From Hormiphora californensis (taxonomy: Eukaryota > Animalia > Ctenophora): a DNA stretch of 64,000 nt. The notes under the pieces were generated by a model. It saw nothing but the letters and a program-made list of their open reading frames with translations, was not told the origin of the DNA and did not search any database. The translations under genes were made by a program, and so were the position numbers. Position 1 is the stretch's first letter; the number at the start of each line of letters is the position of its first letter. Where the stretch lies: assembly GCA_020137815.1 (NCBI GenBank), contig CM035353.1, positions 4,464,001 to 4,528,000 on the forward strand, in the 5' to 3' direction. Below, one piece after another: positions 418 through 58,382 of the stretch.

Positions 418-696
418 TGTAAGCTAAAAATTGTACTCGACAAACCCATTGTATGTGGTTTCATGGTACTGGAGAACGCGAAATTTACCATGCATAATAT
501 GTGGTATAATGTCCTGAAGGTCCGTTATGGAGACAAAATAACCCTATTGCTCAGTGACACAGACAGTTTTATATATTCGGTAAAAACTGAGGATGGTTAT
601 CGTGACTTGTTTTACATGAGGGACATAATGGACTTGGCAGAATATGATCCAGGAACACCCAATTGGGTATTTACCATGTATATACCTACCAACTAA
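418..696 (+). pseudogene. Fragment of protein-primed family B DNA polymerase (Polinton/Maverick/adintovirus type)
   Basis: In-frame translation KIVLDKPIVCGFMVLENAKFTMHNMWYNVLKVRYGDKITLLLSDTDSFIYSVKTEDGYRD shows the KP-x-x-x-GF-x-x-LE...DTDS (motif C) region of pPolB; truncated on both sides. Confidence 0.85.
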
Positions 697-699
697 GAA

Positions 700-1453
700 A
701 TGACGACATAACACTGGAAAAGTCATTGTGACCCATTTCGATTCTATAAGGAAAGTTCCCTGAACTTCCCAAGAATCTGTGGAGAGAGTGCAGAACAATA
801 TCGATATGTAGAATACGAAGACGGGTATGTTAACTATAACAATTCAGTTTTTTCACAATTCCGTTTATGGAGATGGTAATTAATGCATGCAGGCAGTTGG
901 TACCCCACTATCGAGAATTTTTGGGACTCTTAGTGGGGGTACAGTGTACACACATTAAATACAATATAGATTTAATTTCAAGCGCTACTAAAGCTTACCT
1001 AGCTATGAAAAACTTTGATTTCGCGTCAAACATGTCTTGTGTGCGGTGTGGATTTTACCCGGCAGTTCTAATATATGATGGGCATACAATTACATTAAGG
1101 CAGCTTTTGATTTTAAGCATAATGCACATTTATACTTGGAATTTTGTACAGAAAACAGCAGTTACGAAGATTTTGAGGAGATGTTGACAGCAGCAAACAA
1201 AGCTGACGTTTGTAGAGCCTATCTGCCCAGAGATGACCAGCTGCCGATAAACTTCAAACAATTCAAAGTCAAACTAGCGTCATCTCTTCCTCCTCTCATT
1301 TGTCCACAAAATAGCGAGAAAAATTTAGAGAAATTCATACGGGGTCAGTTAATGAAAGATAAACATTTAGGAAAAGATAAGGAACTACATACCAGTGAAA
1401 AGGTCAAAGCTAGAAAAATTCTTGAGTCCAAGCACAGGTCAGCTATCAATTAG
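700..1453 (+). pseudogene. Frameshifted fragment of a KDZ (Kyakuja-Dileera-Zisupton)/HMGXB3-like CxC transposase
   Basis: YVNYNN...KAYLAMKNFDFASNMSCVRCGFYPAVLIYDG resembles the CxxCG-x-x-P-x-x-x-x-x-DG segment preceding the KDZ catalytic domain; partial duplicate at ~4453-4655. Confidence 0.55.
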
Positions 1454-1459
1454 GGCCTC

Positions 1460-1640
1460 TGACCTAATATAGTTGATCTAAGATGAATTGATAAACAATA
1501 TGCTAGGTAATGATGGTTATATAATATACCAAGAATTTACGGTACAATTGGTGACATAGACACCTGGTGACACCTGTGTCTATGTCACCAATTACGGTAC
1601 CATGCAGAGAGCACGACGAAAAAACAGAACATAAGAACAG
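1460..1640. repeat. Local dispersed repeat family A, copy 1
   Basis: tgacctaata..gttgatctaagatgaattgataaacaat...ttacggtaccatgcagagagcacg; homologous to 3043-3300, 3612-4452, 4843-5135. Confidence 0.9.
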
Positions 1641-2200
1641 AGATGACCTGAGACATTAAGCACCGTGCACTGGAGCTGATATCGCGCCACATCCCTCGGG
1701 CATGTGCCCAGGGGTGTGGTGAGATGGTTTCCGGGGACGCAGATTATCAACGGGAGCACGCCTGGCGTTGCACTCATCGAGAAGTACAATGCCCGCTTTG
1801 TTTAACAGCACACCCCCGTGTTGAGTTGGAAAGTCATATCCGGACCGCACACGACATTACCAGCATACCCCGGAATGTGGCGGCTGTGAAAATCTTGGGT
1901 GAGCAGACAGGAACGGTACTGCTGATTATGGGAGCCCCTACTCGTGTCTTAATCAGGGTAGGCAGGAAGGAGGAGTGGCTTGACTCAGCACCGAGCGATG
2001 TTGTCTCCGCCACCATGCTGGACAATGACTGTGGAGGAGGGTGGACCTTGGGGGTAGGTGGCTCTGGGCACCCGCTCAGGTATGCTGAGATTAGAGTTGG
2101 AGGCTTCGGGGAGAGGTTGCTGATACCGCACCAGAAGCACCCCGGACCGTTGACTTTCTGTCTAGTGAACTCGGTGGTTGCCCCCGTGGTGCCCTTGTAA
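1641..2200 (+). pseudogene. SINA/SIAH-like TRAF-type zinc-finger fragment (RING lost)
   Basis: CAQGCGEMVSGDADYQREHAWRCTHREVQCPLCLTAHPRVELESHIRTAH; paralogous to 2760-2990. Confidence 0.75.
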
Positions 2201-55063: not shown

Positions 55064-55345
55064 TTGGAGCTTTTGTCCTTTCCAGAACTTTTCTGCCACG
55101 GTACAGGGAGCTTGCATGATGATAGGCCTCAAGAAATTAAATGCGGTCCAGCTCAATATTGCAAAACCCGGTTGCTCTCTGCAGACGCTCGTTTTAGGCA
55201 TAATCTCCAGTATGTCTTTTTCGTTGCTGGTGAGCAGATGTGCCGTAAAATATCCCAAAGCATATACGGTGCCCTTAGAAATGTACACGGGCTCGATAAG
55301 TTAACTTCGGGCGAACTTTTAAAAAAGATCAAGAACAACGATGAC
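55064..55345 (+). pseudogene. Helitron/Helentron Rep N-terminal fragment
   Basis: ELLSFPELFCHGTG...YCKTRLLSADARFRHNLQYVFF matches FP-x-LF-x-x-G...RL...D-x-RF...Y-x-FF. Confidence 0.85.
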
Positions 55346-55997
55346 GTTAGTAAGAGAAGAATAAGATATTAAAGAAATGACATTCGCAAACATAAACGTC
55401 TTACGACATAATATCAGAGTTATAGAACTGTACTTCATTATAAGTGTAATGTTGGAATATATAGATGTATAATGAATTACTCAAGTCGAATAGAGAGAGA
55501 GAGAGAGTCGGAGGAGTGGGATCGTATTCGGGCATTATAATGAGACAGATGCTAAACCCCACTGTAAAGGGTCGACTGTTAAACTTCGGAATCCATTATC
55601 AAATAAAGGATTTGACGCTGTAAAAAATGCAATAAAGACCTTTCGATACCTTTACCTGTTGGTAAGAAGCTCACGTTGGTGCTCCGTAACTTAACTCTCA
55701 TGTGGTAGTAGTTCTATGAAATTAGTTATTTCTCTCTCACACTCTCTTTCTCAAGTCCATTACAAATTCCAATACAATACACAATTGAAATCGAAGGAAA
55801 TTGAATTGTTCGTGAGCATTAGCAAGCATTAGTGCTTCTGGAACACATTAGGGAAAATTTAAAGAGAGGGAGGTGTAAGATCACGTGATCCAAAGGTGAC
55901 CTTTAAAAACCCCTTCCAATTCCCTCCACCTAACCCCTGCACTCCCTTGCCTAGCTACTAGCTAGATTGTGTCAAGCACTCCTGTGTCTGTATAGTA

Positions 55998-56527
55998 ATG
56001 CCGATCGTGGAATGTTATTCCATATGTGCGGAACTTCAAACCCGAACAAAACGATATCGGTAAGTGTCTCCTCCTACCTTTAAGATTTTGTCCACTCTAG
56101 CTTTAATTGTATAATCATGGTCATTTTATTTGTAATTAATCCCTCTTCTCTAAGCAATTCTAACCACCTCTTCTCTTGTACACAGGAAGTTGTTCACTGA
56201 TATCGGGACCTTGGTGGCTTTTGACTTGTCTATCAAATTGCCCATCGGCAAAATGTTGACTTTAGTACTACGCAAGCCCCCGAAGAATACACGGCCCAGT
56301 GTCATCCTGGTAAGTTTATCTTCTCACACGAAAGTCATATTAGATTGAAAAAATGCTTGAATCATATTGAATTAAAACGTTGATAATGCTAATAATTACA
56401 TCCCATTAGTGTTGTATCAAAGTGGCGGACGCAAGAGTGGATCATGATCACCGAGGATGATGGGAACACGGAGGATGAGGAACCTGTGAAGAGACGCCGC
56501 CTCTATTTCTGCACTGTTCCCAATTAG
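55998..56527 (+). CDS. Candidate 3-exon small gene (~96 aa, unknown function)
   Basis: Exons 55998-56059, 56186-56309, 56423-56527 with GTAAGT donors and AG acceptors splice to an open frame ending in acidic patch plus PVKRRRL; the third acceptor is ambiguous. Confidence 0.45.
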
Positions 56528-56798
56528 AGGAAGAACAATTCCACGGGAACAGTACATATTATGAAATAAGGAAATTTGTAAGAATTATAAAGGTGCTCTC
56601 TCTGGAGAGTAGTTGATCCAAACTGTATGAATTGGCGAGGGACAGTACATATAATTAGAAGGTATATTGTAGATTATCTTTAGATCCCATCAACTATCTT
56701 GCTCGTCTAATGGAAAATTCTGTGTGGTGGAGACACAAGAGAGGGACAAGTATAAATATCATCATTCCCCTAGATGATCTCTATACTTCGATTTGAAA

Positions 56799-57014
56799 AT
56801 GCATACTTGTGTCCATTGCGAACAACGCTTTTCGAATTACAACCAGTTTAGAGAGCATCAACTTACTTGTACTGCTAATGGACAATTTTGTCCAAGTTGT
56901 TTACTTGTGAGTGGTGGACTATCAAGGATTCAACGCTGTAAACAATGCAAAAAACAGCAGGAAATGATATATGTAGCCAACAGAAGAAACTGTGAGCCAC
57001 ATGATACCCAATAG
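56799..57014 (+). pseudogene. Short Cys-rich zinc-finger-like ORF
   Basis: MHTCVHCEQRFSNYNQFREHQLTC..CPSC..CKQC. Confidence 0.4.
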
Positions 57015-58382
57015 TATAGTTAGTTTAGTTTATATAATACTAGTGGACCAGTAACTACCACACATGACACCCCCCGCTGATCCTCCTCGACCAAACACCC
57101 CGCCACCTCAGCAACAGAGAGAGGATACCCCGGAGAGGAGGGATGTCAGGGAAAGACTGGGGAACAGAGATGAGGGAGTTCCACCTCCCGACCAGGCCCT
57201 CCGTTCAGAGCTGGCCATGGACTTTACCAAGCCAGACCTGACCTGTCTGGCGGCGCCAGACCCCATTTGATTCTCAAATTGGGGTCTGGTCTCACAGTTT
57301 TGAATTGCGTGAGCTGCGTGAGAACGCGCACACAGAATCTTAGCGCATTGAGTGCTACAATATGTCGTTCGCGCGTTACATAGAACAGGCCACTAGAGAC
57401 AGGAAGATGAGATGGAGTGTGTGAGAGAGAGTGAGTGTGACAGAGAGAGAGAGAGAGAGAGAGAGAGAGAGAGAGAGAGAGAGAGAGAGAGAGAGAGAGA
57501 GAGAGAGAGAGAGAGAGAGAGAGAGAGAGAGAGAGGAGAGAGAGAGAGAGAGAGAGAGAGAGAGAGAGAGAGAGAGAGAGAGAGAGAGAGAGAGGGAGAG
57601 AGAGAGAGTGTGAGAGAGAGAGAGAAACTAGAGATCCTCTCTTGTTATCAATTTGACCCCTCAAAGAGAGAGAGATAGAGGGAGAGAGAGAGAGAGAGAG
57701 AGAGAAACTAGAGTGTGAGTGAAAGAAACCATTGAGTAGGCACTCTTGTACTATGACTTCCCACGCCCCGGACGTGCCCCCCCCCCCCATACACAGTTAC
57801 CACCCCGTCCGCCTTTATACAACAATATGAAATTAAAACAACTCAATTTATTACCAAAAAAGTTACCAAACAAATGTTAACCAATTACCAGGAAGATGGA
57901 TAAAGTTTTCAACAACACACACACACACACACCCCACTCGTCTCTCTCACTCTCTCCTTTCCCTCTCTTGAGCTACGGGAAATTAATCGAAACATTTATC
58001 GAAACTAGTTTAGAATATTTCAAGATGTAACACTGTCAAACACATTCGCACACATCTCTCCACAGATCAAGATATAGGAAACTAACAATATGGGAATATG
58101 TCATTTCGATCCGATATACCGGGCAAAACCCTTTCCCCAAAACAGTGTTTGCGTTGTTCATTTTGAATGGTTTTTGCTCGAGCTTTCTTCGATCGAATTT
58201 GCTGATAAATGCTGCAGTGAAGATTTGGTACAGCAATATTTTCGTCCGGCAGCATCACAATGGGGCGTGGGCTGTTTGTTTCATCTTTCCGTATTGTACT
58301 TCTCAGCTCAGAAAATGCCTGTAACCAAGATACTGTTAGGGGAGTTAAGGGCAATTGGATTGGGGAAGATAATATAACAACA

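What the first reader, a model, noticed from the sequence alone, without database searches (positions are those of the whole stretch)
418..57250. Every recognisable mobile-element gene fragment is on the same strand: a candidate uni-strand piRNA-cluster-like invader archive
Seen: about 15 independent coding fragments from unrelated classes (pPolB, KDZ, LINE knuckle, RT, two RNase H, two esterases, L2, gag, piggyBac, CACTA, Helitron Rep, SINA-RING, alpha-kinase) all read on +, and I recognised none on -. If orientation were random and independent the chance is roughly 2 x 0.5^15. Most are 0.1-0.6-kb internal pieces with no termini or TSDs, so they did not arrive by their own transposition. Established: uni-strand piRNA clusters such as Drosophila flamenco accumulate TE sequence antisense to the cluster transcript. 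Inference: this is such a locus transcribed from the - strand. Unusually, it holds small internal snippets of DNA transposons and virus-like genes rather than nested whole retroelements, which suggests an active fragment-capture or orientation-selection process.
Basis: partly seen in the sequence, partly recalled or inferred. Interest (0 to 1): 0.9.

Follow-up and report, generated by a model that had tools for sequence, protein, structure and literature searches.

The report
One-way transposon archive, comb-jelly genome
About 57 kb of what is probably a comb-jelly genome is a patchwork of broken genes from many unrelated jumping elements that all read on one DNA strand; this is the layout of a locus that likely makes transposon-silencing small RNAs from the other strand, but no RNA data could be reached to show that it does.

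Summary
The strand bias is real. Eight fragments with database support (Sina RING x2, RNase H, non-LTR C-terminus, L2, gag x2, alpha-kinase) and one Helitron lead all read on +, none on -. Family motifs hit 24 times on + (2.4 expected) and twice on - (2.3 expected, partly circular). A label-free coding score favours + in 53 of 78 tiles (p=0.002).

The fragments are less independent than claimed, and active capture is not needed. 22% of the unique sequence is locally re-duplicated (52 same-strand pairs). The L2 is an ordinary 5'-truncated insertion with its tail, and three TIR elements keep their target-site duplications.

The L2's nearest named relatives are Pleurobrachia bachei proteins, so the host is probably a ctenophore.

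Best reading (0.55): a uni-strand piRNA source transcribed on -, built by insertion, orientation selection and erosion. No RNA data or whole genome were available, so function is untested. It is not a flamenco member in the strict sense, because it is not Gypsy-dominated. Eight similar mosaics from other genomes are already in this scan.

The parts
430..660 (+). PolB fragment of protein-primed type (Polinton-like); label from a recalled motif
   Evidence: SDTDS motif at 553; not confirmed by Pfam, PDB or viral contigs
840..1450 (+). KDZ-type transposase fragment (motif-level); a deleted copy lies at 4453-4654
   Evidence: CxxCG..P..DG motif at 1038; copies 834-1019=4453-4627 and 1358-1387=4625-4654
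1457..1641 (.). ~190-bp module with a central hairpin, repeated at 3040, 3612, 4325 and 4842, each time with different neighbours
1652..2197 (+). Sina-like E3 ligase, zinc-finger and C-terminal part (copy of 2752-2993)
   Evidence: Sina_ZnF E 0.011; 89% DNA copy
2600..2994 (+). Sina-like E3 ligase, RING part, broken
   Evidence: Sina_RING E 3.3e-6; zf-Di19 E 0.0028
3287..3580 (+). C-terminus with zinc knuckle of an RNase H-bearing non-LTR retroelement
   Evidence: 56% to P0030, E 2.9e-19; P0030 has RNase_H and zf-RVT
9400..9435 (+). non-LTR RT motif piece LDIRGAFD; copies at 10021 and 11538
   Evidence: motif scan; self-blast
9625..9771 (+). LTR-element gag fragment, 65% to the copy at 43766-43913
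   Evidence: tblastn E 0.002 with P0049
12254..13594 (.). young non-autonomous TIR element with 100% complementary arms (109 and 534 nt) and TSD GACA; its empty site is preserved in a 98.5% copy at 32339-32661
15150..15240 (+). third Sina-like RING start (LTCPVC), motif-level
   Evidence: Pfam blank
17498..17906 (+). CACTA-like transposase fragment (motif-level)
   Evidence: CDAPMK at 17754; Pfam blank
20071..20397 (+). piggyBac-like transposase fragment (motif-level); partial copy at 18673-18758
   Evidence: YDYTKGGTF at 20344; PDB blank
20963..21127 (+). RNase H C-terminal piece
   Evidence: Pfam RNase_H E 0.0023; aligns to P0030
23876..24079 (+).
   Evidence: CDLCTSEK at 24050; Pfam blank
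24235..24369 (+). RNase H N-terminal piece recognised by eye; related pieces at 25218-25370 and 30443-30629 carry scan motifs
   Evidence: YTDGS 25326, NQAESKAM 30506, YTDSR 30596; searches blank
25379..27771 (.). non-autonomous TIR element with TA target duplication
28119..28360 (+). SGNH esterase piece (motif-level)
   Evidence: DGVHL at 28323
29341..30325 (+). 5'-truncated L2/CR1-group LINE with open RT C-terminus, 3' UTR and (ATT)n tail
   Evidence: 92% aa to P0002; 84% nt over 881 bp to L001; a P. bachei protein is in the 90% cluster of an 87% relative
30630..31791 (.). TIR element with 8-bp TSD CAAATTGT, inserted at the end of the RNase H piece
34311..39745 (.). 311-bp satellite, 17.6 copies, 97% matches
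43464..44030 (+). LTR-element gag fragment inside a 302-codon open frame
   Evidence: 15 homologues, best E 4.9e-12; 8 of 9 scanned carry Retrotrans_gag
47638..47943 (+). Sina-like RING and zinc finger, fused to the alpha-kinase piece
   Evidence: Sina_RING E 5.7e-8
47944..48630 (+). alpha-kinase, two overlapping pieces in swapped order (47944-48133 C-terminal, 48394-48630 upstream)
   Evidence: Alpha_kinase E 1e-14 and 2.3e-9; 74 bp shared at 96%
48634..52146 (.). 100-N scaffold gap, then ~473-bp and 138/150-bp satellites
53700..53914 (+). SGNH esterase piece (motif-level)
   Evidence: VVGDS at 53792; PDB blank
55052..55369 (+). Helitron Rep-region fragment (lead-level)
   Evidence: Atlas 0.96 to unnamed eukaryote clusters and 0.90 to a cluster with Helitron_like_N in 14% of members; FPELFCHG
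56778..57011 (+). C2H2-like zinc-finger piece of unknown origin
   Evidence: motif at 56808

Best explanation
The region is a one-strand patchwork of broken mobile-element genes, probably in a ctenophore, and likely acts as a uni-strand piRNA source: a long transcript from the - strand would be cut into small RNAs antisense to the elements whose pieces lie on +. Shown: all identifiable coding pieces lie on +; some elements entered by ordinary transposition; the region has since been reshuffled by short same-strand duplications and deletions. Inferred: elements insert in either direction; copies antisense to the - strand transcript are kept because they give silencing RNAs, and sense copies are lost; duplication and deletion then strip termini and leave 0.1-0.6-kb pieces. 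Palindromic non-coding elements have no sense strand and would escape the filter, which fits their being the young, intact inserts. Untested: the transcript, the small RNAs, and whether the bias is special to this locus.
For: Eight database-supported loci plus one lead on +, none on -. Motifs 24 vs 2.4 expected on +, 2 vs 2.3 on -. Label-free coding score higher on + in 53 of 78 tiles (sign test p=0.002, Wilcoxon 9e-5). 71 of 92 500-nt windows are purine-rich on + (purine 0.534; sense strand of the L2 contig L001 0.541). Five distinct duplicate pairs more than 10 kb apart all lie on the same strand. No host gene, tRNA or Rfam RNA was found in 64 kb. DNA transposons, LINEs and LTR gag insert by unrelated routes, so a shared direction needs a filter acting after insertion (established knowledge plus inference). 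P. bachei has two PIWI genes (PMC5731801, passage); Mnemiopsis has piRNA clusters that map to transposons (PMC6211395, passages); 402 of 457 Nematostella clusters are uni-strand.
Against: No RNA evidence and no genome-wide control exist for this window. AATAAA is not depleted on - (36 seen, 22.1+-4.4 in shuffles; + strand 29 vs 28.8), so there is no sign that poly(A) signals were purged from the inferred transcript. Database-supported families number only 5-6 (p 0.06-0.03). About half the labels are motif-level, and the motif list was partly written after reading the + translations. The coding score is noisy: it called the known + L2 tile on -, and two further tiles score on - only (32281-32764, 41013-41712). 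CxxC pairs are in excess on - too (62 vs 45.4+-6.2; + strand 66 vs 31.1+-5.3). Long-ORF counts are balanced (255 +, 267 -). In Mnemiopsis, endo-siRNAs rather than piRNAs dominate.
Confidence: 0.55

Rival explanations
1. Ordinary heterochromatic transposon graveyard with no small-RNA role: a few co-oriented founders were multiplied by local same-strand duplication, and such polarity may be common in this genome.
For: 52 same-strand duplicate pairs cover 22% of the unique sequence, and 83% lie under 5 kb apart (16% expected). Satellites fill 10.7 kb. Only 5-6 families are database-confirmed. Eight similar mosaics in other genomes are already noted, and one note says its genome holds dozens (AI notes, not tested here).
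Against: Duplication copies direction but cannot align unrelated classes: about 13 classes at motif level give p=2.4e-4. The young L2 also lies on +, and the bias continues across the scaffold gap.
Confidence: 0.17
2. The region lies inside a long - strand transcription unit (large intron or long non-coding RNA), and sense-oriented insertions are purged because they disturb that transcript; no piRNAs are made.
For: It predicts the same polarity. Antisense bias of retroelements in introns is known in mammals (recalled, no call). Polypyrimidine/3' splice-like tracts are somewhat more frequent on - (17 vs 11.9+-3.2).
Against: No exon with a known domain among 267 - strand ORFs. AATAAA is not depleted on -. 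Intronic bias is usually partial (recalled), not about 24 to 0.
Confidence: 0.15
3. Active polar capture: a reverse transcriptase copies pieces of invader mRNAs head to tail (template jumping) into this locus, so pieces arrive small and already in one direction.
For: Most pieces are short and internal. Unrelated genes are fused directly (Sina to alpha-kinase at 47944). A ~190-bp module recurs five times with changing neighbours. All pieces read in mRNA sense on one strand.
Against: The L2 has its own tail and TIR elements have TSDs. Fusions are explained by duplication plus deletion (335 bp lost in the KDZ copy). No poly(A) excess (A8+: 3 on +, 2.6 expected). The module is confined to the first 5 kb and its copies are 67-94% alike, unlike an ordered repeat-spacer array.
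Confidence: 0.08
4. The whole block is the cargo of one giant Helitron-like element that captured fragments step by step.
For: A Helitron Rep-like piece lies at 55052-55369 on +. Over 90% of maize Helitrons carry gene fragments (PMC3288121, passages).
Against: No hairpin plus CTRR 3' end on either strand. The Rep piece is 0.3 kb and broken. 95% of maize elements are under 10 kb. The cargo is mobile-element genes, not host genes.
Confidence: 0.05

Closest known systems
Drosophila flamenco and flam-like unistrand piRNA clusters (PMC10643416, passages; PMC10495008, passages)
   Same: Long gene-free block of transposon fragments nearly all in one orientation, with fragmented and locally duplicated copies.
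   Different: In flam-like loci the strand bias is driven exclusively by Gypsy LTR elements, and flam-syntenic loci span 227-1085 kb with many full-length inserts. Here gag covers about 0.7 kb, no pol piece was found, and the content is LINEs, DNA transposons, Helitron, Sina and alpha-kinase pieces. Transcript and piRNAs are not shown.
Aedes core piRNA clusters rich in non-retroviral endogenous viral elements (bioRxiv 10.1101/2022.08.22.504762, passages)
   Same: Uni-strand loci that act as traps for invader pieces held antisense to the transcript.
   Different: Those are enriched for non-retroviral viral elements and are often read through from an upstream host gene. Here there is no credible RNA-virus piece and no host gene within the window.
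Uni-strand piRNA clusters of Nematostella and piRNA clusters of Mnemiopsis (PMC5731801, passages; PMC6211395, passages)
   Same: Non-bilaterian animals with PIWI genes and transposon-mapping piRNA clusters; 402 of 457 are uni-strand in Nematostella.
   Different: Those clusters were defined from small RNAs. The passages read do not describe the orientation of transposon pieces inside ctenophore clusters. This locus is defined from DNA alone.

Membership tests
flamenco-like unistrand piRNA cluster | Transposon fragments predominantly in one orientation | tested here: met
   8 database-supported loci on +, 0 on -; motifs 24 vs 2; coding score 53 of 78 tiles
flamenco-like unistrand piRNA cluster | Strong Gypsy/LTR enrichment that drives the bias | tested here: not met
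   Only two gag pieces; no YxDD or protease motif, and GPF only at chance level; no LTR pol Pfam hit. Sensitivity to decayed pol is limited.
flamenco-like unistrand piRNA cluster | One long transcript antisense to the fragments | not testable with these tools
   No RNA holder listed
flamenco-like unistrand piRNA cluster | Dense 24-32-nt small RNAs with 5' U bias from one strand | not testable with these tools
   No small-RNA run listed
flamenco-like unistrand piRNA cluster | Outlier for strand bias in its genome; hundreds of kb long | not testable with these tools
   No whole genome held; at least 57 kb, and the bias reaches the window's left end
Aedes-type core piRNA cluster | Enrichment for non-retroviral viral elements in antisense | tested here: not met
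   No credible RNA-virus Pfam hit among 522 ORFs; the Nairovirus_Gn hit at E 0.0014 covers a Cys-rich C2H2-like piece and is below the cut-off. One motif-level PolB piece.
Aedes-type core piRNA cluster | Read-through from an upstream host gene in the same orientation | tested here: inconclusive
   No host gene within the window; one would lie beyond position 64000
Helitron with captured fragments | 3' hairpin followed by CTRR | tested here: not met
   0 sites on either strand with a perfect stem of 7 bp or more
Helitron with captured fragments | Dispersed copies of the composite element | not testable with these tools
   No whole genome

The most novel reading that the evidence does not exclude
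The locus actively acquires short pieces of invader RNAs in a fixed direction through reverse-transcriptase template jumping, and so works as an adaptive, CRISPR-like memory feeding the piRNA pathway in a ctenophore.
Probability: 0.08. Interest if true: 0.9.

Novelty: new member of a known kind. Interest (0 to 1): 0.42.

Why it matters
If small RNAs confirm it, an antisense transposon archive exists in ctenophores, one of the earliest-branching animal lineages. The one-strand 'trap' layout known from flies and mosquitoes would then be very old or would arise repeatedly, and it would cover DNA transposons, Helitrons and LINEs rather than Gypsy alone. Four literature searches (titles and abstract starts seen, two papers read in passages) showed no description of such a locus in a ctenophore; most subscription journals are not in the library and supplements were not read. 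The layout itself is not new: it is published for flies and mosquitoes, and this scan holds nine such findings, eight of them shown.

Tried and rejected
Expression: no RNA holder listed. The single listed run X1 laid 0 contigs on 13600-25700; this is no evidence either way. No whole genome was held, so no genome-wide control. No earlier notes on this genome or look-alike stretches.

Label confirmation that came back blank: PDB for piggyBac, Helitron (52), PolB (53), RNase H (55, 56) and esterase (57); Pfam on 16 targeted window pieces; Pfam on 150 of 376 ORFs of 33-44 aa, covering 1-20.7 kb only, gave one Sina-related hit on + and one noise hit on -; word-based homologue search for the RNase H piece 24235-24369; Atlas for 10159-10587 (best 0.84); viral contigs for PolB, alpha-kinase, Sina and ORF 10807-11310; prokaryote genomes for L2. 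Rfam and tRNA scans found 0.

Microhomology at junctions: 6 of 13 scored p<0.05, but three of those are overlaps between paralogous copies of one module and one is the TSD, which leaves 2 of 9; inconclusive.

Rejected: a repeat-spacer array built on the 190-bp module (confined to 1.4-5.1 kb, copies diverged and truncated); a single giant Helitron; poly(A)-signal purging as the shown filter; 42894-43165 and 44630-44897 as the paired LTRs of the gag element (68% alike; no primer-binding site recognised by eye; left open).
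Full report
What the window is. 64 kb of animal DNA, GC 37-51% in 2-kb bins, with one 100-N scaffold gap at 48634-48733. Three satellite blocks fill 10.7 kb, and five palindromic or TIR elements fill 5.5 kb; about 46 kb is unique mosaic. 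No whole genome is held. The L2 piece at 29305-29976 matches 28 proteins, the best at 87-92% from unnamed metagenome contigs; the only one tied to a named organism is from Pleurobrachia bachei (70% over part of the query). The 90% cluster of an 87% relative (P0005) also holds a P. bachei protein, and the tree places the window's L2 with these (80/97 support). The host is therefore probably a ctenophore close to Pleurobrachia (my estimate about 0.85; it rests on one element family, which could have moved between hosts).

Check of the observation. All 522 stop-to-stop ORFs of 45 aa or more outside the satellites (255 +, 267 -) were scanned with Pfam. Credible hits were all on +: Sina_RING at 2534-2725 and 47608-48006, Alpha_kinase at 47873-48133 and 48394-48630, RNase_H at 20963-21127, and weak Sina_ZnF and zf-RVT. 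Both strands gave noise-level hits of unrelated families. Homology searches added L2, a non-LTR C-terminus at 3287-3580 and gag at 43464-44030 and 9625-9771. tblastn of the fetched L2, RNase H and gag proteins against both strands gave no - hit better than E 0.13. The Atlas gave lead-level support for Helitron at 55052-55369. That makes 8 loci plus one lead on + and none on - (2 x 0.5^8 = 0.008; collapsed to 5-6 families, 0.06-0.03). The other labels (pPolB, KDZ, RT, esterases, piggyBac, CACTA, and my addition of a Penelope endonuclease) are recalled motifs that Pfam and PDB did not confirm.

Three further tests. A scan with 24 family motifs gave 24 hits on + (2.4 in shuffles) and 2 on - (2.3), both chance-level GPF; the + count is partly circular, because several patterns were written after I read the + frames. 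A label-free score of amino-acid composition and stop avoidance against dinucleotide shuffles favoured + in 53 of 78 tiles (sign test p=0.002; Wilcoxon 9e-5; z>3 in 13 vs 6). It is noisy: it miscalled the known L2 tile, and tiles 32281-32764 and 41013-41712 score on - only and stay unexplained. Finally, 71 of 92 500-nt windows of unique sequence are purine-rich on +, at about the level of the L2 sense strand (0.534 vs 0.541).

How the mosaic was built. Self-comparison gave 52 same-strand pairs and 3 opposite-strand pairs, all three being arms of palindromic elements. The pairs cover 10.5 of 48.3 kb (22%), have a median length of 110 bp and median identity of 81%, and 83% lie under 5 kb apart against 16% for random pairs. 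Examples: 24628-25186 recurs at 28526-29192 with different sequence present in each copy; the KDZ-like piece recurs with about 335 bp deleted; the alpha-kinase lies as two overlapping pieces in swapped order, one fused to a Sina RING. Five distinct pairs more than 10 kb apart are also all on the same strand. Ordinary transposition is visible. The L2 is 5'-truncated and keeps its 3' UTR and (ATT)n tail. The elements at 12254-13594, 25379-27771 and 30630-31791 have terminal inverted repeats and target duplications (GACA, TA, CAAATTGT), and the empty site of the first survives in a 98.5% copy 20 kb away. So the locus still takes insertions and is being chopped and re-copied, which is enough to explain missing termini. 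Junction microhomology was inconclusive.

Mechanism. Duplication preserves direction but cannot align unrelated classes, and LINEs, LTR elements, cut-and-paste transposons and Helitrons insert by different routes. A filter after insertion is therefore the simplest cause (inference). The known filter of this kind is a one-strand piRNA precursor that keeps antisense copies: flamenco and flam-like loci (PMC10643416, PMC10495008; passages) and Aedes core clusters (bioRxiv 10.1101/2022.08.22.504762; passages). P. bachei has two PIWI genes, and 402 of 457 Nematostella clusters are uni-strand (PMC5731801, passages). Mnemiopsis has piRNA clusters that map to transposons, although endo-siRNAs dominate there (PMC6211395, passages). 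I put this at 0.55. The transcript and the small RNAs are untested, since no RNA holder was listed. Against it, or at least not for it: AATAAA is not depleted on - (36 vs 22.1+-4.4); the lower ratio on + may only reflect stop avoidance in coding pieces. Rivals: functionless graveyard 0.17, purging inside a long - transcript without piRNAs 0.15, active RNA-templated capture 0.08, giant Helitron 0.05 (no 3' end found).

Comparison and novelty. It likely works like a uni-strand piRNA cluster but fails one defining feature of flam-like loci, the Gypsy-driven bias, and cannot be tested on the RNA features; I do not file it as a flamenco member. The mixed content of small pieces is closer in spirit to the Aedes traps, without their viral content. 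Sina-like and alpha-kinase pieces may be transposon cargo: alpha-kinase genes ride in fungal IS3EU transposons (PMC12730594, one passage), but their source here is unknown. The layout recurs in this scan: nine earlier findings, eight shown, from other genomes, one of them with some transcript support (AI notes, not tested here). What is particular here is the probable ctenophore host; searches showed no such locus described in a ctenophore, within a library that lacks most subscription papers and without reading supplements. Verdict: real pattern, known kind, function untested; interest 0.42.

Noticed in passing
window 12254-13594 and 32339-32661: Filled and empty versions of one insertion site 20 kb apart (98.5% alike): a very young palindromic element with perfect 534-nt arms and a 4-bp TSD. 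The CACGG terminus with a 4-bp TSD recalls Chapaev transposons (recalled). If transcribed it would form a long hairpin, a possible endo-siRNA source.
   Followed up: partly
window 1457-5136: A ~190-bp module with a central hairpin occurs five times, each time between different coding pieces; copies are 67-94% alike and variously truncated.
   Followed up: partly
window 8749-61735: (GA)n runs outside palindromic elements and the 115-bp satellite lie on + at 8 places, (TC)n at 1: microsatellite polarity follows the coding polarity.
   Followed up: no
window 1652-2994, 15150-15240, 47638-47943: At least three diverged Sina-like RING E3 ligase pieces and an alpha-kinase lie among the transposon pieces; they may be cargo of an unidentified ctenophore mobile element.
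   Followed up: partly
window 10009-10587 and 10807-11310 (+): Two open frames of 193 and 168 codons that look protein-like but have no Pfam hit; Atlas was blank for the first, viral contigs for the second.
   Followed up: partly
window 32281-32764 (copy 11641-12253) and 41013-41712: Tiles that score protein-like on the - strand without a known + gene; Pfam blank. Possible exceptions to the bias, or noise.
   Followed up: partly
window 56975-57058, 62634-62688, 63877-63968; 61640-64000: A short module recurs three times on the same strand near the right end, and + frames score higher than - in the last three tiles, so the biased region probably runs past position 57250 to the window's end.
   Followed up: partly
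window 34311-39745, 48733-52146, 59760-61639: Three young satellites (311, ~473 with 138/150, and 115 bp units; main arrays 95-97% matches) interrupt the mosaic; one abuts the scaffold gap.
   Followed up: no
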